A program made the translations under genes and the position numbers. The notes below the pieces were generated by a model that saw only the letters and a program-made list of their open reading frames with translations, did not search any database and was not told the DNA's origin. 64,000 nt of DNA from IMG/VR virus record IMGVR_UViG_3300028886_000092, one strand, 5' to 3'. The DNA comes from an uncultured virus (IMG/VR IMGVR_UViG_3300028886_000092) (taxonomy: Duplodnaviria > Heunggongvirae > Uroviricota > Caudoviricetes). Shown here in pieces: positions 10,638 through 63,800 of this stretch; positions within the stretch are counted from its first letter, which is position 1, and every line of letters starts with the position of its first letter.

Positions 10638-10680
10638 AACTTTGGTTTTTACTGGTTTGACTTGTTTTTTTTGTTCTTCT

Positions 10681-27334: not shown

Positions 27335-27341
27335 AATCGCT

Positions 27342-29770: not shown

Positions 29771-29790
29771 TTTGGTTTGGTTTAACTTGT

Positions 29791-33403: not shown

Positions 33404-33474
33404 TTTACATCTGTAAAGTTATCGTTTTTTGGCGATTTTTGCAAACAGAAACTTCACCATTTTAACACCATTTT
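33404..33474 (-). promoter_or_regulatory. Class-I phage promoter, copy 2
   Basis: TTTACATCTGTAAAGTTA...AAACAGAAACTTCACCATTTT. Confidence 0.7.
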
Positions 33475-41213: not shown

Positions 41214-41260
41214 TTTGATAAAAATTAAAACAGTTTGACTTGTGTAAGATTTTAATCTTG

Positions 41261-41337
41261 TTTACATCTGTAAAGTTAGCTATTTTTGGCGAGTTTTGAA
41301 AACGAAAACTTCACCATTTTGTCACCTTAACATTTAC
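41261..41337 (-). promoter_or_regulatory. Class-I phage promoter, copy 3
   Basis: TTTACATCTGTAAAGTTAG...AAACTTCACCATTTT. Confidence 0.7.
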
Positions 41338-41529
41338 TGACGTTTTGGTCTCCTGCATATCCTATAGAACCCTTTTTCTTCACCTTCAAGCAACACTGGA
41401 TATTTAGGATCGTCGGTGCCGATATTGATTGGTGACATGTAGTTCACACTCAGATACCGGCTCATTCCGAAATAATCCTGTATGCGATGTATGAAAGGAA
41501 TATCTTTGATTCGCCAGGATAGCACAATC

Positions 41530-47117: not shown

Positions 47118-48125
47118 TTATTTAAGTTTAAGAGTAAATGCTCCGGCCCTTACCGACTGCTTGATATACTGCTCGTACAGATCGGCATGGTCTTTCTTGA
47201 ATCTTGTTGTGTCAAAGGTGTTGGTAATGCTGTCCTTAGCTATAGTAGCAATGAACTTTCCACCATCCCAACTCTTTATGCCGTGCTCAAGCATGGCGTT
47301 CTTCAACTGGACTTTCAACTCATCAAGCCGCTTCTTTGCAGCCGTCTCTTCTTCAAGGATGGCGGCTATGACATTGATAACCTGCTGAGGTAAGAGGTTA
47401 TTCTCCTGGGCGGCCATAGAGGTACCAGCGTAGGCGAATCTCGACTTGTCACCAACATCATACACGAAGCCATGATCCGTGAGTTCGTAGGTGCAGTCGA
47501 GAAGCTGCGCGATGAGGCTGTCATCCTTGCGCTCGATTGCCCACTGCTTACACTGGGAATCACGGAACCAGTTGCCAAGCAATCCCTCAACCTTCAATGT
47601 CGGGTTCTGCTTCTCGAAGAGGAAGGCATAGCTACTAAGCTGCCAAGACAGATACTCAATGAGAGCATCTTCGCCGCCAGGGTAGAGGTCAAGGTTGTTA
47701 GTCTTGGTATCAACAAGCCAGATGCCTCCGGTATCTTTCTTCTGCCAGACATTATCAATGTTACTTGCGTACATGATATTGTCGCTGACAGTGTACTCGT
47801 TATCGATAGGGTCGAAACCTTCACGCAACTTGATGTAGTTCTCCAACTGGGCAGACACGTCAAGGTGCCCGTTCAGTGGGAGGTCATACTCGGTTATCTT
47901 CTCTCCTGTCTTGTCATACATCTCAATGGAGTGGTGTACTGCCGTTCCCTTCTCTCCAGCCTTGGGGATAAGATACTCTTTAACATAATCACTTGCGTCA
48001 CCATAAACACCAAGGCCGGTAGCGGCCTTGATGAGTGTAGTGATACCTGATAGCTGAACTCCCTGCAGGAAATATCCATGAGGGTTCTCGCTGAACTCAA
48101 CTTGACTTTGAACTAACTGAATCAT
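47118..48125 (-). CDS. PD-(D/E)XK (Cas4/YqaJ-like) exonuclease
   Basis: GTAVH, ASNID, LVDTKT, WQLSSY; adjacent to ERF. Confidence 0.7.
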   Translation of the reverse strand: MIQLVQSQVEFSENPHGYFLQGVQLSGITTLIKAATGLGVYGDASDYVKEYLIPKAGEKGTAVHHSIEMYDKTGEKITEYDLPLNGHLDVSAQLENYIKLREGFDPIDNEYTVSDNIMYASNIDNVWQKKDTGGIWLVDTKTNNLDLYPGGEDALIEYLSWQLSSYAFLFEKQNPTLKVEGLLGNWFRDSQCKQWAIERKDDSLIAQLLDCTYELTDHGFVYDVGDKSRFAYAGTSMAAQENNLLPQQVINVIAAILEEETAAKKRLDELKVQLKNAMLEHGIKSWDGGKFIATIAKDSITNTFDTTRFKKDHADLYEQYIKQSVRAGAFTLKLK

Positions 48126-48928
48126 GCTGTAAGAGTTTGACGTTTTGCAACAATAGCATTTCCGAAAGGAGTGTTGGCGGCAATGGTTGCAGGCCAAATG
48201 TCAGTCCAACGCTGAATGAGAATCTCTATGTCATCGTTTTTCTGGCACGTTTCCAATTCTGCAATACCGAAGCCAGATGCCTTCTGGAACATGGCATTAC
48301 ACAACTGCGTGTTTTGGCTCAATTCGGGATGCTCCTTTGAAATATCCTGCCAGTAAGCCATCAGTTCATCGATGCTCTGCTTTGCGTTCACATCGTTGAT
48401 GAATCCTTTCAGTTGGGCACCATTGATGCCAGCCTTGGTACTCGCTGCACCTTGCGTTGCTTGCTTGGTGGCACCCTGTTTCCCGTTGTACTCGACCTGA
48501 TTGCCACAAGCGGCATTGGCATCATCGTCTTCATCTGCAACAATGCCGAGGATGGCGCAATAGGCATAACGCTTCAGATAGGTAATCATGGAGCCTATCT
48601 GCTGAAAGGCGTTAGAGGATAGTGTGCCTTGATGAAGCGGCAACTGCGATGTTACGAACTCTCCTGACGAGTGAGCAAGGGTAGTCACAAGGACTTGCCC
48701 TTGGATTGTCTGAATGACTGCGAGACCGTTCTTCTGCAACTCAGGTGCGGCTGCGCTGATGCACGCAGCGAGATCTGCGTACTGGAACGTGTACGAGCGG
48801 CCGTCCTTCGTGGCGACTTTAACGGACTTGCTCAACTTGGGCTGCTTGAGGCTCCCTTGGAACTTTGACAGAGCTTCGGCGAGTTTGCCGATTGTTTCAC
48901 TCTGCATTGGAATCATTTTTTCTTCCAT
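48122..48928 (-). CDS. ERF-family single-strand annealing protein
   Basis: YADL, HSSGE, GSMITYLKRY...GIVADEDDD. Confidence 0.85.
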   Translation of the reverse strand: MEEKMIPMQSETIGKLAEALSKFQGSLKQPKLSKSVKVATKDGRSYTFQYADLAACISAAAPELQKNGLAVIQTIQGQVLVTTLAHSSGEFVTSQLPLHQGTLSSNAFQQIGSMITYLKRYAYCAILGIVADEDDDANAACGNQVEYNGKQGATKQATQGAASTKAGINGAQLKGFINDVNAKQSIDELMAYWQDISKEHPELSQNTQLCNAMFQKASGFGIAELETCQKNDDIEILIQRWTDIWPATIAANTPFGNAIVAKRQTLTA

Positions 48929-48973
48929 TTTGATTAAATTTAATTGGTTTGACTTATGTGAGAATTAATCTCA

Positions 48974-49058
48974 TTTACATCTGTAAAGTTAGGCATAAAA
49001 GACAAGATAAGAAAACAGAAACTTCACCATTTTGCCACCTTAACTTTTACTAACATAT
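48974..49058 (-). promoter_or_regulatory. Class-I phage promoter, copy 4
   Basis: TTTACATCTGTAAAGTTAG...AAAACAGAAACTTCACCATTTT. Confidence 0.7.
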
Positions 49059-49214
49059 TGTTGTCTGTTGGAATATTCAGAAAACCTGCACCGCCTCCTC
49101 GGACGATGCAGGACAATGTTTTATCGTCCATAAAAGATTGATTGATTGGCAGACAATAAAACAATCACTGGCTATCCTCACGAACCGTCAGTGTCGCGGT
49201 TTGAAATGATTGAT

Positions 49215-49291
49215 TGTGGGCCATCAGGGATTCGAACCCCTTCATCCCCTCCAGTCGCAACCACAGATACCACACTGGAGCGATAGGCCCA
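49215..49291 (-). ncRNA. tRNA-like element (T-arm plus acceptor-like stem, non-canonical core)
   Basis: GGGCCTATC...GATGGCCC stem, GGGG-TTCGAAT-CCCT T-arm, CTCCAGT/ACTGGAG hairpin. Confidence 0.5.
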
Positions 49292-49330
49292 TTAGGGAGA
49301 GGCGGCTACCTCTCCCAGTCCTGAATAAAA

Positions 49331-49579
49331 TCAATCGAGGTTTGATTTCCTATCCTCACGGACCAGATAATCAACCGTGTTCCTTACCCAGTCGGGTATC
49401 AGCAAACGCGAATACTTCAACAGGAATAAGGAATATATAATACCGATAAGGTTCACCAGATATGGACCATTGTCAATACCGATGAAACTTAACAGTGAAT
49501 AGCCTCCCTCGCAGAAAATGAGGATACATGGTGAGCACACGATTGTCACCCATAATACTGCAATAATTTCTTTCTTCAT
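49331..49579 (-). CDS. Small membrane protein
   Basis: Two hydrophobic segments. Confidence 0.55.
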   Translation of the reverse strand: MKKEIIAVLWVTIVCSPCILIFCEGGYSLLSFIGIDNGPYLVNLIGIIYSLFLLKYSRLLIPDWVRNTVDYLVREDRKSNLD

Positions 49580-49610
49580 GACTTTTATATTTAGATGGTT
49601 TGACTTGTGT

Positions 49611-49856
49611 TTAGCGTCTGTTCTTGCAATGCACCAGTACTTGTGGAGCACACACGAACCATTTGCCGTTTTGCTTATAGCATGGTTTTGAAGCTTTCAC
49701 TTGCTCTGATGCGATGAGGCTTTCAAGTTTGCCGGTACCGCCTACGATATGGGCGGCAAGTTCTTTGCTGAAAGTCTCATGCTCAAAGGCAAGCAGTATG
49801 TTCTGCAGCATTGCCGACTGGGTGGCAAGCGGCACATTGTCTAAACTTACTCTCAT
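49611..49856 (-). CDS. Small wHTH/excisionase-like DNA-binding protein
   Basis: FSKELAAHIVGG...KQNGKW pattern. Confidence 0.5.
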   Translation of the reverse strand: MRVSLDNVPLATQSAMLQNILLAFEHETFSKELAAHIVGGTGKLESLIASEQVKASKPCYKQNGKWFVCAPQVLVHCKNRR

Positions 49857-50071
49857 AAGAGGAACTCCTTTCTCCAGTAGTCCATTCCTTTCATGTGGAT
49901 GGTATCTACAAGCACTTTGATGAGTTTCCTCTTGCTGCCTTCTACTCCGATGCTGAAAATCTCCCAGTCAGAATCAGCAATCTGCTTCTCTGTAGCCTCA
50001 AAAAAGTAGGCAGACGTGTAAGGCATGCCAGCTCGATGAATCTGGCTTTTCAGTTTCTTGAAATTTATCAT
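49853..50071 (-). CDS. Hypothetical early protein
   Basis: 72-aa first long ORF of the early operon. Confidence 0.5.
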   Translation of the reverse strand: MINFKKLKSQIHRAGMPYTSAYFFEATEKQIADSDWEIFSIGVEGSKRKLIKVLVDTIHMKGMDYWRKEFLL

Positions 50072-50434
50072 CTTCGTTAAAATTTAGGGGGTTGTAGTGG
50101 CCATGCGTGTTCCGGTGTGTACGCTTACAGCCTCCGCTGAGGCTATGGCCCCAGGCAGGACGGTTTGAAAATGTGGAAAACCTGCCTTATAATTTAATAA
50201 TGTATTTATCTACTTCTCATCTCTCTGTCCGGATGATGGACTGTTGCTCTTTGCGACCGTCCCCTCTCTTTGGGTTATAATGGTCACTCCTCCGGGGAAC
50301 ATTCAGCCCCGTTTCCCTCCGCCCCTATCTACCCTTAACGAGCCTCGCCCGTGTTTATGTAGCTTTGGCGTCCAATGGGGAACTCCATAATTTTTATATG
50401 ATTTATGGAAGTCTGTCAAAGAACTCTTCTTCAA

Positions 50435-50509
50435 TGGCGATCATGCCAGGACTCGAACCTGATGCGCCCCTCTTGGCGCAGACCTGCGAACACACGAATT
50501 AGCATCCGC
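50435..50509 (-). ncRNA. tRNA-like element in the early leader
   Basis: 75 nt; CAGG-TTCGAGT-CCTG T-arm, TGCGCC/GGCGCA hairpin, ends in GCCA. Confidence 0.45.
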
Positions 50510-50608
50510 TTGTTACAATCAAGCCGAGAACGAGAGTTTTTGAAAGATTTCTTTGGTAAAATGCCTTTTTTGTCATAACTTTGCCCTCGATTGATTGATT
50601 TGATACCG

Positions 50609-50706
50609 CAAAGGTATAACATTTGGCGCAATTATTCCAAATATTTTTGGAAGAAATTGCAACACATGGCGCAATTTTGTGAAAAATAACGCCATTTGAC
50701 ACAATT
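50609..50706. promoter_or_regulatory. Genetic switch: early lytic promoter (TACCTTTG, minus strand) and three 22-bp operators
   Basis: Imperfect palindromes AATTGCGCCA-NN-TGGCGCAATT at 50612, 50655 and 50685. Confidence 0.7.
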
Positions 50707-50730
50707 TTTAACTAAAAAAACGGTTTGAAA

Positions 50731-51135
50731 ATGGAAGCAAAAGACTTTAGACAAGATGTTTTTAATCGGCTTGTCGAATTCAAGGAGCAGACAGGCTTGA
50801 CCTTAAACGCATTTGCAGGAGGCATTGGAATGAAACATGCCACACTACACAATCAGTTTCATGGCAAAAGAGACCTCTCTCTTGAAACTGTCATCAACAC
50901 CCTTGCTAATTACGGAGAACTTTCAGCAGAATGGCTATTGCGTGGGAACGGTAGTATGTATCTGGTTGAGCCATCTGTTACAACAGATGATGCCAAACAG
51001 AAAAATGATGCCCGTCTTGACACGCTTATTGACACAATAAAATTGCTGCAAGAGACTATAAAGTCGAAGAACGCCACCATTGACGCTCTCCAGGCTGAAC
51101 TTTCCAAGTATGAGAACAAATCAAAGAAAGCATGA
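50731..51135 (+). CDS. CI-like XRE/HTH repressor
   Basis: HTH LTLNAFAGGIGMKHATL, SAEWLLRGNGSM, C-terminal coiled coil; divergent from the lytic operon. Confidence 0.85.
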   Translation: MEAKDFRQDVFNRLVEFKEQTGLTLNAFAGGIGMKHATLHNQFHGKRDLSLETVINTLANYGELSAEWLLRGNGSMYLVEPSVTTDDAKQKNDARLDTLIDTIKLLQETIKSKNATIDALQAELSKYENKSKKA

Positions 51136-51818
51136 AAAAAGCAATTTTTATCTTGGCGTTTATTCTTCTTTGCGTTTTAGGTTGCTTTTTCAGTAATCAT
51201 AATAGCATGACTAACAATAATGACACATTAGAAGATACAACAGAAGTTGGGCCTGCAACAGAAGAGAATGATAATGCTAAAGATACAACAAAACGTGAAG
51301 TTGCAAAAGTGGAGCCGTTCCCTGAACATCTCATCGTAAGAACTCGTGATGAGATTAAGTACAGAACTCTTGTAGAACACAAGGGGCGTCAAAGGTTTGG
51401 AAGCTGCGTTTTGACAGCCATTTATTCTATTGAAGAACTGGACAATATAACGGGGAAGAAACTGAGTACTCCAAATGTAGGCTCGTTTCAGCTTGTAATG
51501 TACCTGTCACATAAAGGTGCGTACAAACCTGAGACCATCGTTCTCGTTTGCGACGGGGTGCCACATCAAATAACTCCAAATTTCATCCAGTCTGCTGGCA
51601 GTGGGAAGTTTATTCTCCTGTTTAATATAGGAATTATGAATAGTACTTCAACGGTTCCGCGTGACATAACAAAAGCGAAAACGGTTGAAATAAGGGTTCG
51701 TTATGATAATGGGGATGATATAATTAAGGTATCGGACAAAGACCAAGAAGCCATTAAGGTTATGTATTGGAGTTTCTATAGAGATGGAGGAACAAATACT
51801 GAAGTAGATGGCTATTGA
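51132..51818 (+). CDS. Membrane-anchored/exported protein co-transcribed with the repressor (superinfection-exclusion candidate)
   Basis: N-terminal MKKAIFILAFILLCVLGC signal; AT-rich; overlaps the repressor stop. Confidence 0.55.
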   Translation: MKKAIFILAFILLCVLGCFFSNHNSMTNNNDTLEDTTEVGPATEENDNAKDTTKREVAKVEPFPEHLIVRTRDEIKYRTLVEHKGRQRFGSCVLTAIYSIEELDNITGKKLSTPNVGSFQLVMYLSHKGAYKPETIVLVCDGVPHQITPNFIQSAGSGKFILLFNIGIMNSTSTVPRDITKAKTVEIRVRYDNGDDIIKVSDKDQEAIKVMYWSFYRDGGTNTEVDGY

Positions 51819-52115
51819 ATAATTATTAACTCAAAAACGGTTTGAAAATGGAAAAAGACGATTTTGTTTCCGATTTATTGTCGGGCTGAAAAAGCAAATG
51901 AGTCCGAATATGCGAGTTTTCCTAAGTTTCAAGCAGTTTTATTGCAAAAAAGTTGTATTTATGCACTAAAAACTGCCACAATTTACGGAAAACACGCAAC
52001 TATACGGACTTTAGAGAGTAACCAATTAAGAAAATGAGCCACTTTTGACGCAAATCTTATTGTCGGTTTGTGGTCCTTCTGGCTCAAAACATTTACTTTT
52101 TATTGTCGCAAAATT

Positions 52116-53318
52116 ATGGCAAATCTTAGCGCAGTTATTGTACCTGCAAAGGTACTAAAAGGTGGGAAGCATAAAATAAGGATCGCCGTCTCACACAATT
52201 CAAAAACACGATACATCGTAACGGATATTACAATAGATTCAGACAAAGAGTTTAAGGATGGTCGTATAGTCAAGCGGCCAGACGCAGCCATCAAGAACGT
52301 GAAGCTGCGTGGCCTGCTCGATAAGTATCAGGAGGCTCTGGACAATCTCGTCTTCGTTGAGAGCCTTTCATGTGAGGAACTTGTGTCACAACTGAAGAAC
52401 AATGACAGGTACCGCCATCGTACAATCCGCTCAATATATGATGAGTATGTAACAGTTAAGTCTATAAAAGCCTCATCGCGCTCTATATATGATATTCAAA
52501 TCAGAAGTATATTGCGATACCTCGGGACCGATATGCTGATGGAGAACGTGAGCTATTCTACGGTGATAGGACTGGAGAAATACCTTACCGAACAGGGGAA
52601 TTCATCAACAACTATAAGAGGTAAGCAGCTTTTCCTTATGACTCTATACTTCTTCGCTCAGAAGTGTATGTATATACCTTTCAAGACAGACCCTTGGTTC
52701 GGATACAAGTTTCCGGAAGCTAAGGTGAGAGATGCCTGGCTAACAATAGAAGAGGTGGCAAGGATTAGGGATGCCTCATTCAAGCAACGCCAAAGAAGTC
52801 AGGTGCGCGATATGTTCATGCTCTCATACTACCTTGGAGGAATTAACATGGTGGATATGCTCAGCATCAACTTCAACGAGTGCGGAAGGCATATTATTTA
52901 CGAACGTACAAAGACAGACAGAATGTCTAAAATTAACAAGTACGTTGAGTTTGACATGCCAGACGAGGCGATGGAAATAATCAACCGCTACAAGCAGCCT
53001 AATGGCTTGCTATTCTCAGCCTCATCAACGAGAAGCAGAAGGTTTCACCAGACGCTCGACTACAACATGAAGCGCATAGCGGAGGACTTGGGGCTTAACA
53101 AGCTCATCTTCTATTCTGCCCGTAAATCATTTGCACAACATGCTCTCGACCTCGGTATAGAGCAATGTACCATAGACTTTATTTTGGGCCACAAACTGAA
53201 CAAGAGGGGTACGAGTTTGTTCAATTATATAAAGGTAACACCTGAACTTGCAACAGATGCAGTGAAAAAAGTTTGCAGTTCTCTAAGAAATGTCGTACCT
53301 TTGCCAACGAATCAGTAA
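52116..53318 (+). CDS. int: Tyrosine integrase (Bacteroidetes type)
   Basis: Arm-binding N-terminus, SAM-like domain, GGINMVD, YERTKT, YSARKSFA, LGH, catalytic Y. Confidence 0.92.
   Translation: MANLSAVIVPAKVLKGGKHKIRIAVSHNSKTRYIVTDITIDSDKEFKDGRIVKRPDAAIKNVKLRGLLDKYQEALDNLVFVESLSCEELVSQLKNNDRYRHRTIRSIYDEYVTVKSIKASSRSIYDIQIRSILRYLGTDMLMENVSYSTVIGLEKYLTEQGNSSTTIRGKQLFLMTLYFFAQKCMYIPFKTDPWFGYKFPEAKVRDAWLTIEEVARIRDASFKQRQRSQVRDMFMLSYYLGGINMVDMLSINFNECGRHIIYERTKTDRMSKINKYVEFDMPDEAMEIINRYKQPNGLLFSASSTRSRRFHQTLDYNMKRIAEDLGLNKLIFYSARKSFAQHALDLGIEQCTIDFILGHKLNKRGTSLFNYIKVTPELATDAVKKVCSSLRNVVPLPTNQ
53272..53303 (+). promoter_or_regulatory. Consensus Bacteroidota housekeeping promoter inside the 3' end of int
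   Basis: TTTG (53272)-20 nt-TACCTTTG (53296). Confidence 0.7.
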
Positions 53319-53385
53319 GATTTCCATTTTGGTTATCACTGGTTTGACTTGTGTGGCACTGGGGGTGGTTCCCCAGTGCTTTTTT
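53308..53385 (+). ncRNA. Predicted ~78-nt trans-acting antisense sRNA
   Basis: Own promoter and terminator; body complementary to several lytic-gene translation starts. Confidence 0.6.
53356..53385 (+). terminator. Intrinsic terminator
   Basis: GCACTGGGG/CCCCAGTGC 9-bp stem plus T6. Confidence 0.85.
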
Positions 53386-53561
53386 ATATCCCTCATGCAA
53401 CCTTTCCAAATATTATGAGTATCTTATATAGAGTACCCCAATTGCGAGATGAGATTGTGTGGTTGAGGGGTATTCTTGGAGGCTGCGTGTTACTGTGCTG
53501 TGCAGCCTCCTTTTTTTGTTTGAGCCTCATCAAAAAAACGCGTCCCTCGGACGCGCCTTAT

Positions 53562-54245
53562 TCATAGTTTGGAATATTCCTTCAAAGCATCAAATGACGG
53601 ACAGCATTTTATCCACTCACAGGGTGATATGATTCCGTCACCGTTTTTGTCCGGGGAGAAATCCCGATGTCCCTTAATAATAGCCCTTGGATATTGACCC
53701 TTCAGCTCCTTTAAGAGCCTCATCAGGGATTGCTTCTGCTCTGGTGTCCGAGTGTCCTTTGCTTTCAGCTTGCTATACGGTACATTCGGATTGTTCTCCA
53801 ATCCTCCCACGTATGCTACACCGATGCTATGGGAGTTGTAACCGCTAACGTGCGCACCTACCTTGTCAACACTTCGCCCTCGTGCTATTGTCCCGTCTCG
53901 GTAGATAACGAAATGGTAGCCGATATCGCTCCAGCCGTTCTGCGTCATGTGCTCGTTTCGGATCTGCGCCACCGTCTTATCCTTACCCTCAGGAGTAGCA
54001 GTACAATGTACGGCAATATAGTCAATACGGCGTGCAGTTGTCTTAGCGACATCAACCTGCGGCAAAAGTTTGGCAAGGGTCTCTGGGCCTGCTATACCAT
54101 CAGGTGTAAGTCTGTTCTCACGCTGCCATGTTATAAGAGCCTCGCGTGTCAGCTTACCAAATATGCCATCAGGGATGAGGTGTAAAGCACGTTGTATCTG
54201 TTTGACTCCCTCACCTCTCGAATTGAGTTTATATATGGTAGTCAT
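53562..54245 (-). CDS. Endolysin: peptidoglycan-binding domain plus N-acetylmuramoyl-L-alanine amidase
   Basis: DGIFG/DGIAGPET repeats; VHCTAT, GWSDIGYHF, GAH, GHRD, KCCPSFD. Confidence 0.92.
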   Translation of the reverse strand: MTTIYKLNSRGEGVKQIQRALHLIPDGIFGKLTREALITWQRENRLTPDGIAGPETLAKLLPQVDVAKTTARRIDYIAVHCTATPEGKDKTVAQIRNEHMTQNGWSDIGYHFVIYRDGTIARGRSVDKVGAHVSGYNSHSIGVAYVGGLENNPNVPYSKLKAKDTRTPEQKQSLMRLLKELKGQYPRAIIKGHRDFSPDKNGDGIISPCEWIKCCPSFDALKEYSKL

Positions 54246-56103: not shown

Positions 56104-57447
56104 CTATGTGAAAATGTACTTAATCTTGTTGTCAGCGAAAGGTTCTGCACGAATGACTGTCTCAAAGGGAAAGCCGTCCTCTATGTCGCTTATCTTGTCG
56201 AGAATCTGCTTCATCTCCTTGCTTGCTGTGAAGAACTTTTTGAACACTTCACCTTCTTTCACGGAAACAAGGTATCTGTCATCCCCGTTCTCTGTTTTCA
56301 AGTCCTTCTCATAGTCAAGTACAACTATGGGGACATTGGTAATGCTACTCAATCGCACGGTATTGCCGGGGAATCGTTTCTTCCCGTCTTCGGGAGTATA
56401 GGTCACCCCCATCTCGCTAAATTTCTTCATATATTTACTTGTTAATTTGTGATACAAGTTTTTGCAGTCGGCATGACAGGCCATTCCCAAAAACGAGCCT
56501 ATTATCTCCTGCCTGCGTTTTCTACTCTTTACCTTGTGCAGCTTCCTTGCCGCATTCTGCTTTATCCTCTTCCTGATGAGGCTGTAATCCTCAAACTGAA
56601 CATATCCGAGATAGTCGAGGCCTTCACTGATGGGGCGGACTGCCTCATTCGGCTTTATCCTCAGGCCGAGCTTTGCAATCTCACTTACATAAAGGTCGCG
56701 CAGCTTCCATAGATGTTTTTTGCTATTGGAGAAAATTACAACGTCATCACAATAGCGATAATAAAGAAACCTCACCTCTTCTCCGTCGTCAGTTTGCAAG
56801 ACGTAAGAATATACATGTTTCAGCATAACATGATCGACAGGAGAAAGAAAGAGGTTTGCATAACACTGGGATGAGCGCAGGCCCTTGGAGAGTCCGTTTG
56901 GTAGCAAGTCTACGAAGTTTTCAAGCATGGGGAGCAATACCTCGTCACAAACATATTTCCTCAGCTCTTGTTTCATCAGGGTATGGCTGATATTGTCATA
57001 GTAGTGCTCGATGTCGCTCTGCCAGTAGTATTTGCATAGCAGTGGGACGTTCTTAATATCGTCCTCTACAATATGGTGCATCCAGTGCATACCCCTTCCC
57101 TTGATTGAGGCAGCCGTATTTTTGATGAGGCTCGGATAAGTGTAGCGTTCTACAACTACCATGATGGCATGTATTCCTACTCTCTTATAGACGGTAGGAG
57201 CCTGCACGTCCCTCTCCTTTGGCCCGTCCTTCACATGGATATCACGCACATCCTCCCTATATATACGAAAAATGCCGCTCCCAATCTCTGCAGTCAGTTT
57301 CTCTACATAAGACATTCGGAGTGGCTTATACTTCTCTCGCTGTTCCTCATATTCAAGATGCCCGATAACATAGTCAAAGCTATCGTACATGTTTTCTTCG
57401 CAGACAATCTCAGGGATGAGGTTGTCAAGAGGATAGGAAAATTCCAT
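56104..57447 (-). CDS. DGR reverse transcriptase with fused C-terminal ~108-aa domain
   Basis: KERDVQAP, SIKGRG, SDIEHYYDNI, GLSKGLRSSQ, YYRYCDD, GLDYLGY; adjacent to TR. Confidence 0.93.
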   Translation of the reverse strand: MEFSYPLDNLIPEIVCEENMYDSFDYVIGHLEYEEQREKYKPLRMSYVEKLTAEIGSGIFRIYREDVRDIHVKDGPKERDVQAPTVYKRVGIHAIMVVVERYTYPSLIKNTAASIKGRGMHWMHHIVEDDIKNVPLLCKYYWQSDIEHYYDNISHTLMKQELRKYVCDEVLLPMLENFVDLLPNGLSKGLRSSQCYANLFLSPVDHVMLKHVYSYVLQTDDGEEVRFLYYRYCDDVVIFSNSKKHLWKLRDLYVSEIAKLGLRIKPNEAVRPISEGLDYLGYVQFEDYSLIRKRIKQNAARKLHKVKSRKRRQEIIGSFLGMACHADCKNLYHKLTSKYMKKFSEMGVTYTPEDGKKRFPGNTVRLSSITNVPIVVLDYEKDLKTENGDDRYLVSVKEGEVFKKFFTASKEMKQILDKISDIEDGFPFETVIRAEPFADNKIKYIFT

Positions 57448-57588
57448 TTGCCTTCAGGACTTTAAGATATTTTTCGGCTTTCCACCATTGATGCTGTTGC
57501 CGTTGCTCGGAGTCCTCGCACATACTATGGCCAACACGTAGCCTTGGCAGAGATGCGATTATCGGGTTTTACCCTAAGTTCTTTAGTT

Positions 57589-57702
57589 GAGACGCGCCCC
57601 GTTGTTCGTGTTCGAGTTCGAAGAAGCGTTGTTCGTGTTCGTATAGGCGAGACCGCCGTTAGCGTTCGCGTTGTTGTTCGCACGACTGACAACACGGCCG
57701 TT
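57589..57702 (-). repeat. DGR template repeat (TR)
   Basis: 114 bp with 13 AAC codons; matches VR except at adenines; own TACCTTTG promoter at 57719-57726. Confidence 0.95.
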
Positions 57703-57802
57703 GGACTCTTCCGCGCTGCAAAGGTACGCAATTTCAAAAAGATTTCCATATTTGGGCTCAAAAAATTTTTCGCCTTTGGCGATTTTTGACTTTGCAAACG
57801 AG

Positions 57803-57831
57803 AGAGGGAGCAGCCTTTCGGCTCTCCCTCT
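57803..57831 (-). promoter_or_regulatory. DGR target-recognition hairpin downstream of VR
   Basis: AGAGGGAG-AGCC-GAAA-GGCT-G-CTCCCTCT; GC-rich stem with a GNRA loop about 40 bp after the target stop. Confidence 0.75.
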
Positions 57832-57870
57832 GACGCTCTTTTCAAAATTTTCGCTCGACGCTCTGACGCT

Positions 57871-60800
57871 CTATTCGTCCACTTCGACTATGTCGCCCCT
57901 GAAGGCGAGACGCGCCCCGAAGCCCGTGCTCGAGTACGAAGAAGCGTAGTACGTGTTCGTACAGGCGAGACCGCCGCCAGCGACCGCGTAGTAGTACGCA
58001 CGACCGACAACACGGCCGGTTGAGCCGTTAATAGAGCCATAGCAGCAATAGTGCGTAATGAACCTGCTATTGTCTGATGGGTCGAGTTTGCTCGGAGTGG
58101 TGTCGCAGAATCTTCCATGCTTAACTCTTGCCACATTGTAGCCGGTCAATGCGCTTGGCGCAGGAACAACACGCTCTGTGTCACTTATCGGGTCGTAAAT
58201 GCGGAAATTGTAATCTACAACGTCGGCAGATGATGCGTTGCAGGAATTTTTCACAAAGTTCTTCCACGACTTGACATTGAAAGCTATGTTGCCCTTCCAC
58301 TCGTAGTTACATGCCACGATACCTTCAAGTCCGACGGCTTTGTTTACACCGCTTGCCTTGCTTGTATGCGATTTGCCGATAGCATCCGTGGAACCTGTGG
58401 TATAACCTGAACTTGTACCCTGTCCGATAACGTCTTGATCGTGACGGTTGCCAATGAGTGCCCAGAATATTTGAGCTACGATAATATCCTGCTCATGGTC
58501 CATAAGCTGATAACCAGGTCCGCGCATCTCTGCCACGTTCATAAAGTCTTTGCAGGTGTAGTGAAGACCACTCGGCAGTACGGAGTTCGTAACCTTGCCG
58601 TTGGCATCATACGTCCACTCTGGAGAGGTGGCAGAGGTACCGTCGCCTCGCCTTGTCACAACACCGCTGATAGAACGTGCACGGCCAATGTTATCCACAT
58701 ACATTCCATAGACTCCCATAAGTTCGTTATCCTTATGCTCTACCCAGTCGGGTTCTATTGCCTCTATCTCTGTGCTGTCAGTGGCAATAACCTCTGTATC
58801 GAGGCTTACTGTCTGATAGCAGCAGAAATAACACTTGACAGAACCTGCAGGAACGTCTGTAAAGACATAGTCGCCATCAACGAAGTCGAACAGTGAGTGA
58901 CTTATAGACATATTGAACTTGCCGGTCACTCTATCCTCGTCATCAACAAACACTGCCCCATATCCTGATATGTTCAAGCCGGGGAAACGTATCTGTTTCA
59001 TGCCTGTAACATCAAAGGCAAATGACATGAGGTTGCTCACTACTTGCAGATTTGCATCCGTGAAGATACCTCCTATTGTCACGTTGTTCAGATTTACGCC
59101 CATGTTGGCAAATGGTGACAATCGCCCAAGTATGCTACGGCTATACTCGCCGCTTGCTTCTGGCCTGCTCTCCAAAGAGGACAGGAAGGTGTACTTCAAC
59201 TGATTCTTGAAGTCGTTCACACCCTTGTACCAGAAGTGGCCAGGTCTCATCATAACATCATAACCCTCTCCCAAGCGGTCCGACGGGTCAAATTCGCTAC
59301 CGTCAGCATACTGGAGGTATGTGGCATCGCTGAGCTGCCTAACTTCCATCTTACCAGTCTGCTCGTTGAATTTGGCACGTACGGCGTGCATATTGTTCCA
59401 GATGTTCAGAATGTGAGCACTTGGAGTATAGACTGCACCTGTACCGTAGCCAGTGTTGTTGTCGAGGTTCGTGATGTTCTGAGGGTCTTGCTCGGTATCA
59501 TGGAAGCGAATGGCGGTGTACTGAACATTCTTAACCAACAGACCTTCAAAGGCGGCGTTGTATGCCTCTACCTCTTCATCCTCATAGTATCTTGTAAGAT
59601 TGTAGGTACCGATGAGAACAGGCTTGGGGCTTACATTACCTACGGCATCATATCCTCCGAGGTTCATTCCCATAATGGTTGTAAGGTCTGTTCCGGTACC
59701 GCTGGCCTTTACTGTCTTGATACGCACATTCCTCAACTGACTGTTGCCGGTGATGAGGCTCCGAAGCAATTCCATACCGTCTATCTTATCGCACTCCTCA
59801 AAGATAAATGATGTTACGTTGGCAGCGTTGGCAAGTATCAGTCCCTCACTGGTTAGATTGGGCAGATAGCGAAGCTTCAGATAGTTGTAGCTTGCAGGCA
59901 ACTGCAAATAAGTTATCTTGGCTCCGTCTGCTATGTCTGCACGTACCAACTGACTGCCTGCCGCATACAGAGACTCCAATCGTGGGCAGCTGCTACATAC
60001 AACATTGGTGATGAGGGTGTCCCTGATGTCGAGTTTCTTCAAGAACGGCAACTCTCCAAGGTTGAGGTTTGTCAGCAGGGTGTATGCTCCGATGGTGAGG
60101 TTGACCTTGCCTACCTTACCGATGTAGATTTCCTCAGCCAGTGTCATGACAGAGAAGTCGAAGTTGTTCGACAATGTGATTTCCGAGAGGTCTATCATAG
60201 ACATACGGTCTGCCTGATAGATGTACAGCAATGCACCCTCTTCATGCGAGAAGTTGGTAAAGACATGGGTATCTCCAGCCTCCAGATAGACGCTCTCAGA
60301 GATTGAGCCGCTACTATCGTTACCGATACCGAAATAACCTGTCTTAGCTGCCTTGATCGTAATTGTGGCACCATCGGGAGCATTAACACGTCCAGACAAC
60401 ACTCCGCTGAAGAAATTGCCGGTTCCGTAGAATCCGTCACGGATTCTCCATCTTCTTTCTATGAATGCAGGAAGTGAGGTGAGGCCCAATCCTTGCAGGG
60501 CATAGAAGTAGATGTTATTGGCCGTGGTACTCGTAAAGTCTATGTACTTGCGCTCTCCATCGTAGGAAGATACCTTCTTCTGCCAGCGCTTGATGCGTGC
60601 TTCAACGAAGAAATAGTACGCCCCTTCAGGTGAGAATGGCTGCAAGGTCTGACCGTCAACAGTGGCCGTGCAGCTTCGCATGGCTGAGGCTACCGTCCTA
60701 AGCGAGAGTTCGGTACCCTGAGCATCTACATTGACAGTCTGCTGCAAGTAGATGTTACGGAACAGGACTGAGTTGTACCCTGCGTATGGGTTGGTGTAAC

Positions 60801-63800
60801 CCGTCTGAGGGTCGGGCAGCTTGTTCGGGTCAACCTCTGCGTCAACAGTCTGACCACCATCATTGTCCTTGCCGTTGCAGGTATCGCAGTCATAGACCTT
60901 ATTCAGATACATGCGCATTGCGAGCATTCCGGTAGTGGAGTCGCTTGCCTGATTGTCGGCATTGTAGTACACACCGTCCACAACCTTACAGCCATCCTCC
61001 AGGAACCACATGGGCTGCATGTTCTTGGCCCTCTGGTCAACGGCTGCACAATAGTCCGTGAACACGTCGTAAGAGAGGCAGGAGTATGGGGAAGCGTACT
61101 TGTAGAGGTCTGTCTTCCACAGAGCGAGACGCGCTGCGCCGTTGTCGCCGTCCTCATCCTTGTAGGTGTCGTAGTCGCAACTGTCGCAGAACTTCATCCA
61201 ACGGTAGAGGTTGTAGGGAACCTTCTTTCCGAGGGCGTAGGCTATAGCCAGATTATCGTCATCAACCAGGCATTCATAGTAGTACGTCCAGGCAGGAACT
61301 GTCTCTACGGAAATGTCGCCACCGTCGATAAGGGCTTGCACCCACTTCGAGAACGATGTGGAGGGTGCCATCATGTCTGCAACAGACGAAACGCCCTTGA
61401 ACCAGTCCATGCCCTGATAGTTCAGAAGCTCGAAGCCGTCAGTCGGGTTGACAACAGATCCTGTGACAGTCCATTTGCCGTTAGCGTTCTGGACCATCGA
61501 GCCGCTTTGCTCCACCCACTGGCTGCCGTTGTGCTTCATCACCTTGTAGCTGCTGCCGCAATACTGGGTGAGTACATAGGTGGCTTCTGTGTCAAGGCCA
61601 TTAGTAGCAAGGAAACGGGTCTTGGTCTGTGCCAGCGTCTCATTGCTCAGACCGTAAAACTCTATGAAGTCGCCATAGTTCAGACAGCCCTTGTTATATC
61701 CTGGCACATCGTTGAAGCCAAGTGCCACCTGTTCCTTCTTGTCTTCCTTCCAGTTGCCCTTTGAATGGAAATACGGGCTGCTGCCAGTATCGCTCTTTGA
61801 ACGGAACATGGCCACAGGTATATTGGCGGTTGAATGGTTCATTACAAGACCATCCACAACAAGGGTGCCTTTCTTCCAGGTACCATCGAAGGCTCTCTGC
61901 GCAGGGGTCATATAGTTGCGGCCCAAGGCTCTGAAAGTGGCGTTCATCATGTCACAGATGCCGCAGTCATTGGCATTGGAGCTGTCGCTATAGTCCACCT
62001 TCACCGTGATAATATCCACAGGGATGCTGTCATCATGGATCTGTACCTTGTTGATGGCTGCCAGAGCGATTGCCCTGCGTCCTGCCTCAGTGCTGTCATC
62101 GGGGTTCAGCAGCGTGATCGTCGTGCCGCCCGTCTTGTTCACCTTGTCATAGGTTGAACCTTTCTTCTGTGCCAGATAGTAGCGAGGGTTCTTGACAGGG
62201 CGCTGGGCTGACGTGGTGCCCTGGTTCCTTCGTGCAACGTCACGGGCAACAAAGTTGGTCCAGGGACGTGCAGGGTCTATATAGTACAGGGTCACATAGA
62301 TCTGGTCTTTCGTCGATACGGTTCTATCAAGGCCCTCGATGTCGGAGCCGTTGAAAGGACACTCGATGATGTAGGCCATACCCCTGTCTGCCAGCTCTGA
62401 TGCCTGAGGGCGCAGTTTCGTGGTCTGTATGCCAAGTTCCGTGACAGCCTGTGAAGCCATCACACCCTCGAAGTCGTACTCAGTCACCATGTCACCGGTG
62501 TCGGTCAGCTTCACAAGGTAGTTCTGGAAAGCCTGGTCAAACTGGAAGTAGTCTTCCCATGCCATCATATAGAACAGGTAGAAGTCGCCCTGAGTGCCGT
62601 TGAAGGTGATGTTCTGCTCCTGGATCAGATTGCTCTGTCCTGCCACATAGCCGATGACGGCCACTTCTTCACCGTTCAGATAGAGCTTGATGAAGTAGTA
62701 GGTGGTACCACTACGGGTCTGTCCCAAGCCTTCTGCCGCAGGTTCAACCACGACGGCAACAGTCACCTTCTCACCCTGTCTGTAGGCGCGTTCCTCAACA
62801 TGGTTGGAAAGACCTGTTGAACAGTAGATGCCTACTGCCTTACCTGTGACATAGAAGCCTGCACCTACACCCTCATGATAGCATTGCATCAGAACAGCAT
62901 TGTCATCAACCAGGTTCTTTGAGGCAAAGGCAAACTGGATGGCAAGACCGTTGGCCTCTATCGATGTGGGCTTGAAAGGCTGGTGGTTCAGGACGGCTGT
63001 CACGTCCTCTGCAATTCTAAGGCACTTCTCGCCCAGGAACGTGCGGAAGCCGGTAGTGCTCCAGTTCGAGCCGCTGACGGCTATCGTCTTGCCGCCGCTG
63101 GTGATGGTGTGGTCGCTCTCTTCATTGCTGCGGTTCGAGAAGTCGAAGGCATAGATGGCACCGCTCTTCAATGCGGCATCAATCACCGTGCCGCTCACAA
63201 GGAACGTCGCTTCTGTGCCGTATGCAGCGCCCACGCCCACCTTCACGATATGCGAGAAGGTGCCGTCACTCACTACGCCTGTCACCTGATGGGTATAGGT
63301 GTATGAGGTTGAGCGGTAGGCCGTATGGCTCTGAACAGCGTTGCCATCCAGATAGACGGTGGCTGTCGGTGCATTGTTCGTCGGGTCATAGACGGCATAG
63401 TTCACGGTGATGGTCTCATAGAGCTTCACCGCTGCATTGGCTGTCTCGCAAGTCCAGCTCTCCACCACAAGGGGCGTTGTGCTGCTCTCATCTATCACGA
63501 AGATGCCTGAGTACAGGTAGTTACCCACAACACCCGATGCCACGTCCACGCCATGAACGCGGATGGGATAGGCACCATGTGACAATACTGAGCCAAGGCA
63601 GTTCGTCGGGTCAATGGTGATGCCGTGCGAATAGGTGTCTGATATGACACTGCTGCCAAGCTGCTGCCAGCTGCCGTTAAGATATATCTCAGTGATGGCC
63701 GTGATGCCTCGGTCACTCGCATTGTTCGCAAACTTATACAGGGGGATGCTCTTGGCACCGCCGCCAACTGTCAGGGCAGTGCTCTGGGTGTATTGCAGCG

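What the first reader, a model, noticed from the sequence alone, without database searches (positions are those of the whole stretch)
53272..53385. int-3' sRNA antisense to the translation starts of several lytic operons (candidate RNA-based lysogeny lock)
Seen: a perfect Bacteroidota promoter (TTTG-N20-TACCTTTG) inside the end of int and a strong terminator at 53356-53385 delimit a ~78-nt plus-strand RNA. Its unpaired body (TTTCCATTTTGGTTATCACTGGTTTGACTTGTGT, 53321-53354) recurs on the plus strand just upstream of, and often across, the ATG of minus-strand genes. The sites are 10631-10665 (15-nt exact plus TTTCCAT), 41206-41245 (13-nt exact plus CATTTTG), 48923-48960 (TTCCATTTTG plus TGGTTTGACTT), 49596-49610 (15-nt exact) and, more weakly, 29766-29790. 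The RNA is therefore complementary to those mRNA leaders. Three targets are the first genes behind class-I promoters. Inference: one lysogen-expressed sRNA blocks translation of several early/middle operons. This parallels P1 C4 or P22 sar RNAs but is multi-target, and I do not recognise it as described for Bacteroidota phages.
Basis: partly seen in the sequence, partly recalled or inferred. Interest (0 to 1): 0.9.

Follow-up and report, generated by a model that had tools for sequence, protein, structure and literature searches.

The report
Phage small RNA mirroring gene leaders
A family of about 60-kb temperate phages, probably of Bacteroidota, carries beside the integrase gene a small folded RNA gene whose conserved core mirrors a short tag placed just upstream of the start of several of the phage's own early and regulatory genes, so one RNA probably silences them together.

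Summary
At 53296-53385 (+) there is a free-standing small RNA gene. It has a consensus -7 box, a long 5' stem (P1), a 9-nt open linker and a terminator hairpin with an invariant apex. It is conserved in 20 of 20 relatives of the integrase (86-44% identity) and in over 110 IMG/VR stretches, with compensatory changes in both stems and better folding on the plus strand. In some relatives it stands behind another gene's terminator, away from int.

Its core UGGUUUGACUU complements a tag, AAGTCAAACCA. The tag occurs 5-12 times per phage on the gene strand, and 46 of 54 copies lie 14-20 nt upstream of an ATG (random baseline 5.5%). Tagged genes recur across phages: ERF/Rad52 recombinase, ParB-like and WYL_2. 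The RNA and the tag flanks co-vary phage by phage (2 of 40,320 permutations reach the observed match).

Not shown: the transcript, repression, or a role in lysogeny. The "unpaired body" is mostly paired. No Rfam family and no paper found describes it. Best reading: a multi-target antisense repressor, working like P1 c4 or Bacteroides FopS. It is a new variant of a known kind.

The parts
53272..53275 (+). -33 element TTTG of the small-RNA promoter (inside the int reading frame)
   Evidence: This element is less conserved in relatives than the -7 box.
53296..53303 (+). -7 box TACCTTTG (consensus TAnnTTTG)
   Evidence: A TAnCTTTG box is present in all 20 of 20 related loci. It lies outside the int frame in L133-L135 and L139-L148. 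It lies behind another gene's terminator in L190, L242, L202 and L261.
53309..53385 (+). Predicted small RNA, about 77 nt; the start is inferred as about 5 nt after the -7 box
   Evidence: Fold -31.9 kcal/mol, z = -4.46. Model R1 scores 100 bits here and gives one strong hit per phage genome.
53309..53345 (+). Stem P1: 5' arm GAAUCAGU (53309-53316) pairs with ACUGGUUU (53338-53345) and encloses a variable inner hairpin
   Evidence: Compensatory changes (for example G-C in 8 and A-U in 29 sequences at one pair). A conserved U.G pair is seen in 35 of 42 sequences.
53321..53332 (+). Anti-start segment UUUCCAUUUUGG, complementary to CAAAAUGGAA-type start regions
   Evidence: contiguous pairing across the AUG is 15 nt (ERF gene), 10 nt (29770 gene), 9 nt (ParB-like) and 7 nt (WYL_2).
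53340..53354 (+). Anti-tag UGGUUUGACUUGUGU; the open linker is 53346-53354
   Evidence: Opening energy is 0.26 kcal/mol for the linker and 7.3 kcal/mol for the whole anti-tag.
53355..53385 (+). Terminator hairpin P2 with invariant apex GGGUGGUUCCC, followed by a U-run
   Evidence: Stem covariation (A-U in 26, C-G in 5, G-C in 5 and U-A in 3 sequences at one pair).
10653..10665 (-). Tag in the leader of the WYL_2 gene (10311-10637), behind a class-I promoter block (10671-10771)
   Evidence: Seed duplex -24.5 kcal/mol.
29778..29790 (-). Tag, U variant (AAGUUAAACC), in front of gene 29288-29770 (PHROG 8581, function unknown)
   Evidence: It pairs through a G.U wobble.
41231..41243 (-). Tag in the leader of the ParB-like gene (39522-41213), behind a class-I promoter block (41252-41352)
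   Evidence: Seed duplex -22.1 kcal/mol.
48945..48957 (-). Tag in the leader of the ERF recombinase gene (48122-48928), behind a class-I promoter block (48965-49065)
   Evidence: Seed duplex -25.8 kcal/mol.
49596..49608 (-). Tag in front of the small early gene 49331-49579 (82 aa, no family)
   Evidence: Seed duplex -24.5 kcal/mol.
52068..53318 (+). Tyrosine integrase; its last ~45 nt overlap the small-RNA promoter
   Evidence: Arm-DNA-bind_5, Phage_int_SAM_5 and Phage_integrase domains.
50552..51135 (+). Lysogeny-side context: consensus promoter 50552-50583 and cI-like repressor gene 50731-51135, on the same strand as int and the RNA. A face-to-face leftward promoter lies at 50609-50641 (-)

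Best explanation
53296-53385 is a phage gene for a trans-acting antisense small RNA of about 77 nt. It is transcribed rightwards from its own host-type (sigma-ABfr consensus) promoter and ends at an intrinsic terminator. Each phage of the family puts a short address tag (AAGUCAAACCA) 14-20 nt upstream of the AUG of 5-12 of its lytic-strand genes. In this window these are the first genes of the early recombination operon (ERF) and of the ParB/methylase operon, the WYL_2 gene behind the phage sigma factor, and two small genes. I propose the following sequence of events. The RNA's open linker (UGACUUGUG) nucleates on the tag. Pairing then spreads into the 3' arm of stem P1 and displaces the RNA's own 5' arm. 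A conserved U.G pair in P1 becomes C-G with the mRNA. In many members a CAU-containing inner segment also pairs across the start codon. The result is most likely a block of translation initiation, and perhaps decay, of all tagged messages together. The gene sits in the lysogeny module (cI-like repressor, int, RNA, one strand) and has one of only four consensus host promoters in the window. I therefore infer that it is made in lysogens, backs up the protein repressor against leaky lytic transcripts, and acts in trans on incoming relatives. Shown: the gene's conservation, fold, strand, complementarity and co-variation. Inferred: the transcript, the repression, and the lysogeny or immunity role.
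For: 1) The gene is real.
- The element is present in W plus 19 of 19 int-related loci, down to 44% int identity.
- It occurs in more than 110 IMG/VR stretches. Of the 80 fetched, 77 match the full box-motif-apex-T-run pattern, giving 32 further unique sequences.
- Model R1 gives one strong hit per genome.
- On 42 distinct sequences, 95.4% of cells pair against 85.7% in shuffles (0 of 500 reach it). Six of 12 pairs carry compensatory changes. Slid controls reach at most 65%.
- The plus strand folds better than the minus strand in 15 of 17 sequences (mean -30.2 against -23.4 kcal/mol), with 2-7 against 0-3 G.U pairs.
- In L190, L242, L202 and L261 the gene follows another gene's terminator and has its own -7 box.
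- Only 4 consensus promoters occur in 64 kb, against 0.62 expected.

2) The tag.
- The 9-mer is strand-specific in all 9 genomes: 68 copies on the gene strand and 4 on the other.
- 46 of 54 tags have an ATG-ORF of at least 40 aa starting 14-20 nt downstream. Of random positions, 886 of 16,000 do.
- The tagged genes recur: ERF, or Rad52 in G010; ParB_N+HTH_ParB; WYL_2; DUF3560.

3) Link between RNA and tags.
- L131 and L136 have GGUUUAACUU in the RNA and AAGUUAAAC in 3 of 3 of their leaders.
- At tag position -1 the RNA base is G, A or U depending on the phage, and 46 of 54 leaders are pair-compatible with it.
- Flank pairing with a phage's own RNA averages 5.6 nt, against 3.6 +/- 0.47 in permutations; 2 of 40,320 permutations reach it.
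- Anti-AUG pairing with the own RNA averages 5.96 nt against 5.30 +/- 0.23; a fraction of 0.0049 of permutations reach it.
- In the window, 4 of 66 start regions pair with the 22-nt seed at -22 kcal/mol or better, against a mean of 0.09 and a maximum of 2 in 300 shuffles.

4) Precedent in the phylum. FopS RNAs of B. thetaiotaomicron are about 65-70 nt, have sigma-ABfr promoters and a terminator hairpin, and repress translation by pairing to start regions at the 5' end of polycistrons (PMC11697453, passages read).
Against: - No transcript has been seen. The only RNA-library material was low-depth contigs scattered over the whole phage.
- Half of the anti-tag is locked in P1, with an opening cost of 7.3 kcal/mol.
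- The tag lies at about -28 to -17, upstream of the usual occlusion zone.
- Anti-AUG pairing is weak in G002, G005 and G011, at 3-6 nt.
- The 9-11-nt core is almost invariant across phages whose integrases share 44% identity. Mutual pairing alone does not require this, so there may be a third partner.
- Co-variation by identity could also arise from concerted evolution among repeats within one genome.
- In G005, G007, G008 and G011 one tag with the longest complementarity precedes a non-coding stretch and tRNA genes, not a start codon.
- No structural or lysis genes carry a tag, and a cI-like repressor exists, so any 'lock' is partial.
- The host is unknown, so host targets could not be examined.
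Confidence: 0.55

Rival explanations
1. The RNA is real and pairs with the tags, but it is not a lysogeny lock. It acts during lytic growth, either as a timing device that shuts off early and middle genes late, or positively by guiding processing or stabilising and activating tagged messages.
For: The tag keeps a fixed 14-20 nt distance to the AUG and an invariant core, as expected of an element with a positive role in initiation. One tag precedes a non-coding RNA/tRNA cluster in relatives, which fits processing. The promoter is constitutive in type, so the RNA could also be made during infection.
Against: Pairing across the start codon in W, G007 and G010 (7-15 nt) argues for blocking, not activation. 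The leaders are A/U-rich with no obvious inhibitory fold to open (my reading). The gene lies in the lysogeny module, on the strand of cI and int.
Confidence: 0.2
2. The tag is mainly a start-associated site read by a protein or the ribosome, like the start-associated sequences (SAS) of Cluster K mycobacteriophages. The small RNA has another job, for example a host target or a role near the attachment site. Its complementarity would reflect descent from an inverted leader copy kept alike by recombination.
For: Fixed spacing to the AUG, an invariant core and one orientation resemble the SAS. The SAS authors left open whether an RNA or a protein reads them (PMC3203893, passages read). The RNA's 5' part looks like an antisense copy of a whole leader.
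Against: The most conserved part of the RNA is exactly the anti-tag. Where the RNA has G at position -1, leaders carry C (13), U (4) or A (2); where it has A or U, they carry U or A. A conserved U.G in P1 sits where the target offers C-G. One Bacteroidota 16S rRNA shows no complementarity to the tag: best duplex -9.8 kcal/mol against a mean of -11.1 for shuffled tags.
Confidence: 0.12
3. The motif works on DNA, as oriented binding sites for a phage repressor (stoperator-like). The copy after int is one more such site, and the hairpin is only the int terminator.
For: The sites are asymmetric, single-orientation, dispersed and intergenic, as described for L5 stoperators (mentioned in PMC3203893). 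The phage has a cI-like repressor and two ParB-like proteins.
Against: No copy of the motif lies at the switch promoters (50.5-50.7 kb), where a different repeat (TGGCGCAATT) occurs. The spacing is fixed to the ATG, not to the -7 box: it is about 15-27 nt in the leaders printed. One class-I promoter lacks the tag. This reading does not explain the conserved promoter, P1 covariation, plus-strand G.U bias, or free-standing gene copies.
Confidence: 0.05
4. Nothing functional: a relic leader copy plus a translated minus-strand mini-ORF (MEILLIRWQRYDIS), or a chance promoter match.
For: On the minus strand the copy has the tag followed by an ATG 14 nt later.
Against: The mini-ORF is 1-14 codons with no conserved peptide. 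Its ATG is lost in L137/G004 and its spacing is 2-18 nt. The element is conserved in more than 40 distinct sequences with structure covariation.
Confidence: 0.03

Closest known systems
c4 antisense RNA of phages P1/P7 (Rfam C4), and the CI RNA of satellite phage P4 (the latter recalled, not read here)
   Same: A phage-encoded RNA of about 77 nt acts in trans by base pairing on the phage's own lytic-function messages as part of immunity. [quoted passage not shown] Its reference list names the 'processed 77 base antisense RNA' (passages read).
   Different: There is no Rfam match. c4 is cut out of the operon it controls and acts on one operon. Here the RNA has its own promoter and a regulon of 5-12 dispersed genes marked by a common tag. 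The host phylum is different. A protein repressor is also present.
FopS/GibS small RNAs of Bacteroides thetaiotaomicron
   Same: Size, sigma-ABfr-type promoter and terminator hairpin are alike. Several targets are bound at the start region of the first gene of a polycistron, and translational repression has been shown in vitro (PMC11697453, passages read).
   Different: Those are chromosomal, multicopy, have a 5' single-stranded seed and target susC-like genes. Here there is one phage-borne copy, the seed lies between two stems and partly inside one, and the targets are the phage's own genes. No sequence or model match at E <= 10.
Start-associated sequences (SAS) of Cluster K mycobacteriophages
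   Same: An asymmetric short repeat, 11-19 copies per genome, in one orientation, just upstream of the start codons of non-structural genes. It is conserved across subclusters even in front of unrelated genes, and its reader is unknown and could be RNA or protein (PMC3203893, passages read).
   Different: SAS lie 3-7 bp from the start codon and contain a Shine-Dalgarno core. Here the distance is 14-20 nt, there is no SD-like core, and a complementary RNA gene is identified.
Stoperators of Cluster A mycobacteriophages (L5); named in PMC3203893, details recalled
   Same: Dispersed, asymmetric, orientation-specific sites that silence lytic genes in lysogens.
   Different: Those are DNA sites bound by the repressor and identical to its operator. 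Here the motif is absent from the switch region and is mirrored by an RNA gene.
lambda OOP and P22 sar antisense RNAs (recalled, not read here)
   Same: Small phage RNAs from the immunity region that pair with a lytic-pathway message.
   Different: Those are cis-encoded antisense RNAs against one overlapping gene. This one is trans-encoded and multi-target.

Membership tests
Rfam C4 (P1/P7 c4 antisense RNA) | Match to the family's covariance model | tested here: not met
   cmscan of the window at gathering scores found only RT-3. cmscan of 53250-53570 at E <= 10 found only two chance-level hits, STnc420 and snoU83.
Rfam C4 (P1/P7 c4 antisense RNA) | Processed out of the transcript of the operon it represses | not testable with these tools
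   Here a conserved own promoter argues for a primary transcript. No RNA ends could be observed.
FopS/GibS family | Sequence and structure homology (the authors report depositing a model in Rfam) | tested here: not met
   No such hit at E <= 10. Whether the model is in release 15 was not checked separately.
FopS/GibS family | sigma-ABfr promoter, single-stranded seed, Rho-independent terminator, pairing to start regions | tested here: inconclusive
   Promoter and terminator are met. The seed is only partly single-stranded. Pairing is predicted, not shown.
Start-associated sequences (Cluster K mycobacteriophages), for the tag | Asymmetric repeat, many copies, one orientation | tested here: met
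   5-12 tags per genome; 68 copies on the gene strand and 4 on the other.
Start-associated sequences (Cluster K mycobacteriophages), for the tag | Lies 3-7 bp from the start codon and contains a Shine-Dalgarno core | tested here: not met
   The distance is 14-20 nt in 46 of 54 tags. There is no GGAG-like core, and no complementarity to one Bacteroidota 16S rRNA.
Start-associated sequences (Cluster K mycobacteriophages), for the tag | Absent from the host genome | not testable with these tools
   The host is unknown and no G000 is held. An unrelated Bacteroidota genome shows no enrichment: 2 copies against 7 of the control pattern.
Stoperator-type repressor sites | Same sequence as the operator at the early promoter | tested here: not met
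   No motif copy with up to 2 mismatches lies at 50.5-50.7 kb. A different repeat occurs there.
Intrinsic terminator of int only (no separate gene) | The hairpin follows int directly and nothing else is conserved | tested here: not met
   The invariant apex, P1, the -7 box and copies detached from int are all conserved.

The most novel reading that the evidence does not exclude
The tag and the RNA may form a phage-private address system for translation. The tag would be a start-associated enhancer read by a third partner, either a host factor or the phage's own Sm-like WYL_2 protein, which is itself tagged. This would explain why the core is invariant across phages whose integrases share only 44% identity. 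The RNA would mask the tag by toehold-driven strand exchange: an open 9-nt linker, then displacement of its own 5' arm, with a conserved U.G replaced by C-G. Because the core is shared family-wide, one resident prophage RNA would silence the early genes of any incoming relative. That would be a cross-immunity RNA spanning a whole phage family.
Probability: 0.2. Interest if true: 0.85.

Novelty: new variant of a known kind. Interest (0 to 1): 0.72.

Why it matters
Temperate phages of Bacteroidota are abundant but their regulation is almost unknown, and the phylum lacks Shine-Dalgarno-led initiation and Hfq. This is a widespread, strongly conserved RNA gene: more than 110 matching stretches in IMG/VR with the scan stopped at its limit, and one strong hit in each of the complete or near-complete ~60-kb relatives examined. 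Its predicted regulon is clear and co-evolving. It offers a directly testable case of one small RNA controlling several phage operons through a shared leader tag. It also names a candidate reader for start-associated repeats, whose partner has been an open question since they were described in mycobacteriophages. If the RNA gives immunity, it would shape which related phages can coexist in one host. The tag and RNA pair would also be a compact orthogonal translational switch for Bacteroides genetics.

Tried and rejected
- Expression. One run search and one laying of three RNA-library runs and one other run gave only Logan contigs, with depth 2-15, scattered over lytic and lysogenic parts alike. 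Two 151-nt contigs (53229-53379 and 53225-53375, 100% identical) start inside int. They cannot show a start, a strand or a separate small RNA. This is no evidence either way.
- Full-length RNAduplex of the 77-nt RNA against 69 start regions does not discriminate. Shuffled RNAs reach -40.7 kcal/mol on average for their best target. I replaced it with a 22-nt seed test.
- 16S rRNA pairing of the tag was tested on one non-host Bacteroidota 16S and found no signal.
- Host search. No genome is held for the window. The one genome-contig scan gave a chance match. The pattern was found in 0 of 401 genomes sampled from the phylum of G006. This means not found in those searched, not absent.
- GenBank phages. 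blastn of 49000-54000 found no match. The nearest integrases, Bacteroides phages BS-TP3 (44%) and BF1-TP2 (35%), came up. BS-TP3 has no R1 hit near int. A weak BT-TP2 hit is only terminator-like.
- The first two pattern scans returned mostly chance matches.
- Literature. Searches found no description of this RNA or tag. Search 88, for the motif letters, listed 15 of 118 papers, all eukaryotic primer contexts. I did not read the other 103.
- Minus-strand mini-ORF, relic and DNA-operator readings: see the rival explanations.
- Earlier scan notes by place and by sequence returned nothing.
Full report
**What the window is.** The window holds a temperate siphovirus-type phage of about 61.3 kb. Most genes run leftwards.
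- Structural and packaging genes: terminase, portal, capsid and a 1235-aa tape-measure-like ORF.
- Replication, recombination and modification genes: ERF, SSB, SNF2 helicase, VRR-NUC, two ParB-like proteins, DnaN, and C5 and N6/N4 methylases.
- Regulators: an ECF-type sigma factor (10766-11227) and a WYL_2 protein (10311-10637).
- A rightward lysogeny module: a cI-like repressor (50731-51135; PHROG repressor families), an unknown ORF (51132-51818) and a tyrosine integrase (52068-53318).

The window is longer than the phage. Bases 1-2231 recur at 61326-63535 with a spacing of 61325 or 61304 nt, but only 73-87% identity. A near-identical 61,513-nt viral record exists (G001). No whole genome is held and the host is unknown. 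A Bacteroidota host is suggested by three things: the promoter type, the integrase domain set, and the nearest GenBank integrases, which belong to Bacteroides phages.

- Promoter: TTTG-N20-TACCTTTG lies at 53272-53303. Only four full matches to TTTG-N19-21-TAnnTTTG occur in the 64 kb, against 0.62 expected. Two of the others are the face-to-face pair at the cI-like switch. The consensus is the one given for sigma-ABfr in PMC7366714 (passage read).
- Terminator: the hairpin is at 53355-53380 and is followed by T6.
- Motif: TGGTTTGACTTGT with up to 2 mismatches occurs six times, all on the plus strand, against 1.93 expected; 0 of 100 shuffles reach six.
- Position of the copies: the five copies away from int lie 9-19 nt upstream of the ATG of minus-strand genes. 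Three sit behind a conserved ~100-nt promoter block. A fourth copy of that block (33.4 kb) has no tag, so the tag is not part of the promoter.
The predicted RNA folds at -31.9 kcal/mol (z = -4.46). It forms a long stem P1 (53309-53345), an open linker (about 53346-53354) and the terminator P2.

**The element after int is a conserved gene.** I collected relatives of the integrase from viral and metagenome contigs.
- All 19 loci, with integrases from 86% down to 44% identical, carry the same architecture downstream of int. It consists of a TAnCTTTG box, a variable body, (G)GTTTGACTT, a hairpin with the invariant apex GGGTGGTTCCC and a covarying stem, and a T-run.
- In L133-L135 and L139-L148 the -7 box lies outside the int frame.
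Of the 80 fetched, 77 match the full pattern, giving 32 further unique sequences. By my reading, the other three have a TAATTTTG box and only a 3-T run.
- In the groups of L190, L242, L202 and L261 the order is int, a ~150-aa ORF, that ORF's own terminator, a -7 box, then the RNA. This shows an independent transcription unit.

**Fold and strand.**
- Single-sequence folds give P1-linker-P2 in 14 of 17 sequences.
- The P1 arms differ between lineages and stay complementary. Examples are GAAUCAGU/ACUGGUUU, AUCAAUAA/UUAUUGGU, AUCAAUGU/ACAUUGGU and AUCAAGGACUCGG/UUGAGUUUUUGGU.
- A covariance model (R1) finds exactly one strong hit per phage genome.
- On 42 distinct sequences the 12 modelled pairs are formed in 95.4% of cells. 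Shuffles give 85.7 +/- 0.8% (0 of 500 reach the observed value), and slid registers give at most 65%. Six pairs show changes on both sides. This alignment was fitted to the model, so the counts lean towards the structure.
- The plus strand folds better than the minus strand in 15 of 17 sequences (mean -30.2 against -23.4 kcal/mol). It uses 2-7 G.U pairs, against 0-3 on the minus strand.
- Rfam has no family for the element.

**The tag.**
- In every complete or near-complete relative examined, AAGTCAAAC (or its U variant) is confined to the gene strand. The gene-strand/opposite-strand counts are W 7/0, G002 4/1, G004 6/1, G005 13/2, G007 7/0, G008 10/0, G009 6/0, G010 6/0 and G011 9/0. The reversed-pattern controls give 0-2.
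- I left out G009, which has the same RNA as G007, and excluded the RNA-gene copies. Of the remaining 54 tags, 46 have an ATG-initiated ORF of at least 40 aa starting 14-20 nt after the 9-mer. Of random gene-strand positions, 886 of 16,000 do.
- The tagged genes recur across divergent phages. They are the single-strand annealing recombinase (ERF, or Rad52-type in G010), the ParB_N+HTH_ParB gene, WYL_2, DUF3560 and several small unknown ORFs.
- Structural, lysis and lysogeny genes carry no tag.
- The minus-strand reading of the RNA gene does not look like a real leader. Its ATG is 2-18 nt from the tag, becomes GTG in L137/G004, and opens 1-14 codons with no conserved peptide.

**RNA and tags change together.**
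- L131 and L136 (integrases 86% and 70% identical to the window's) have GGUUUAACUU in the RNA. All three of their leaders within reach have AAGUUAAAC.
- At the position just 5' of the tag, the facing RNA base is G in W, G004 and G011. It is A in G002 and G005, and U in G007, G008 and G010. Leaders are pair-compatible in 46 of 54 cases. Where the RNA has G, leaders carry C (13), U (4) or A (2). Where it has A, they carry U in 12 of 15. Where it has U, they carry A in 17 of 20.
- Contiguous pairing beyond the 9-nt core averages 5.6 nt with a phage's own RNA, against 3.6 +/- 0.47 when RNAs are permuted among the eight phages. Only 2 of 40,320 permutations reach the observed value.
- A second site, pairing across the AUG, is also better with the own RNA (5.96 against 5.30 +/- 0.23 nt; fraction 0.0049). 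It is strong in W (15, 10, 9 and 7 nt), G007 (CAUAAUUC against GAAUUAUG) and G010 (CCAUAAU against AUUAUGG). It is weak in G002, G005 and G011.
- In the window, four of 66 start regions pair with the 22-nt seed at -22 kcal/mol or better: ERF -25.8, WYL_2 -24.5, the 49579 gene -24.5 and ParB-like -22.1. Shuffled seeds give a mean of 0.09 and a maximum of 2 in 300 shuffles.
- The phages are related and repeats within a genome can homogenise. Co-variation therefore proves a link, but not by itself base pairing.

**Mechanism I propose.**
- The linker is open (0.26 kcal/mol to expose). Freeing the whole anti-tag costs 7.3 kcal/mol.
- The leader's ACCA and the RNA's own 5' arm AUCA compete for the same UGGU. 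The intramolecular pair is a U.G conserved in 35 of 42 sequences, and the mRNA offers C-G there.
- The geometry fits a toehold on the linker followed by strand exchange into P1. In many members the CAU-bearing inner segment then reaches the start codon.
- Bacteroidota messages lack Shine-Dalgarno sequences and depend on A-rich stretches at -3, -6 and -11 to -15 (PMC7366714). Own-phage pairing reaches about -12.
- Repression of initiation is therefore the most likely outcome, as shown for FopS RNAs of B. thetaiotaomicron on the first genes of polycistrons (PMC11697453).
- A role in lysogeny or superinfection immunity is inferred only from position, strand and promoter type.

**What does not fit neatly.**
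- The core is nearly invariant across the family. Pairing alone does not demand this, so a third partner is possible.
- One 16S rRNA shows no complementarity to the tag.
- In G005, G007, G008 and G011 the tag with the longest complementarity (12-22 nt contiguous; in three of the four it runs into the P2 arm) follows a stop codon and precedes a structured non-coding stretch. In the three loci where ARAGORN found tRNA genes (none in G005's L153), tRNA genes follow. The tag is therefore not only a start signal.
- No transcript was observed. The RNA-library contigs are uninformative.

**Comparison and novelty.**
- The element works like the c4 RNA of P1/P7, a trans-acting antisense RNA of 77 bases that represses Ant synthesis (PMC8546580), and like the P4 CI RNA (recalled). 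It fails the only membership test available, the Rfam models.
- It differs from those RNAs in having its own promoter and a dispersed, tagged regulon.
- The tag resembles the start-associated sequences of Cluster K mycobacteriophages in copy number, asymmetry, orientation and conservation in front of unrelated genes. The authors left its reader open (PMC3203893). It differs in distance to the start codon and in lacking an SD core.
- Stoperator-type DNA sites are unlikely, because the switch region lacks the motif.
- I found no description in Rfam 15, in GenBank phages or in five literature searches.
- Earlier notes of this scan report analogous anti-leader RNAs in unrelated phages. I did not test them, and they are not independent evidence. 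If they are right, this would be one case of a wider principle.

**Verdict.** This is a new variant of a known kind.

Noticed in passing
window 56104-58023 and 57871-63936 (-): A diversity-generating retroelement. It comprises a reverse transcriptase (56104-57447), an Rfam RT-3 RNA (57456-57560, 55.5 bits), and a template/variable repeat pair (57589-57705 and 57907-58023, 84% identical). The variable repeat lies at the C-terminal end of a 2021-aa ORF.
   Followed up: partly
window 1-2231 and 61326-63535: The window wraps round the ~61.3-kb phage. The two copies of the large DGR-target gene are only 73-87% identical at a constant spacing. This indicates either tandem related prophages or an assembly that runs on into a variant.
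   Followed up: partly
window 53386-53520 (+): A second conserved non-coding element lies between the small RNA's terminator and a second plus-strand terminator (about 53470-53520). It has a hairpin GAGUACCCC...GGGGUAUUC with a compensatory U-A to C-G change in L136 and L137, and a loop containing UUGUGUGG. An analogous conserved stretch plus terminator follows the RNA in G007 and G009. It could be a second small RNA or part of the attachment site.
   Followed up: partly
window 50552-50641 and 50624-50676: Two consensus promoters face each other, so their transcripts would overlap at the 5' ends. The rightward one precedes the cI-like gene. The repeat TGGCGCAATT occurs at 50624-50633 and 50667-50676 and looks like an operator.
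   Followed up: no
G005 about 19629; G007 2877; G008 2116; G011 48479 (gene-strand coordinates): In relatives, one tag copy with extended complementarity to the small RNA sits directly after a stop codon. It is followed by about 80-100 nt of GC-rich hairpins. In G007, G008 and G011 tRNA genes then follow, some with unusual anticodon loops by ARAGORN; ARAGORN found none in G005's locus L153. The window has no such site and no tRNA.
   Followed up: partly
window 10671-10771, 33395-33495, 41252-41352, 48965-49065 (-): Four copies of a ~100-nt promoter block with an invariant AAAATGGTGAAGTTT and TAACTTTACAGATGTAAA. The -7 box lacks the final G. The block may be read by the phage's own ECF-type sigma factor (10766-11227).
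   Followed up: no
window 25779-28951 and 33475-34227 (-): Genes suggesting DNA or nucleotide modification lie among the replication genes and next to the terminase. They are a TET-associated glycosyltransferase, an NAD-dependent epimerase, a phosphoribosyltransferase-like ORF and a PRA-isomerase-like ORF.
   Followed up: no
window 42729-42915: Four closely spaced direct repeats of AAAAGGTGTTCCCATTCCGTACCTTTTTTT (81-95% identical, spacing 34-76 nt) lie inside or beside ORF 42179-43192. They could be iterons or an origin.
   Followed up: no
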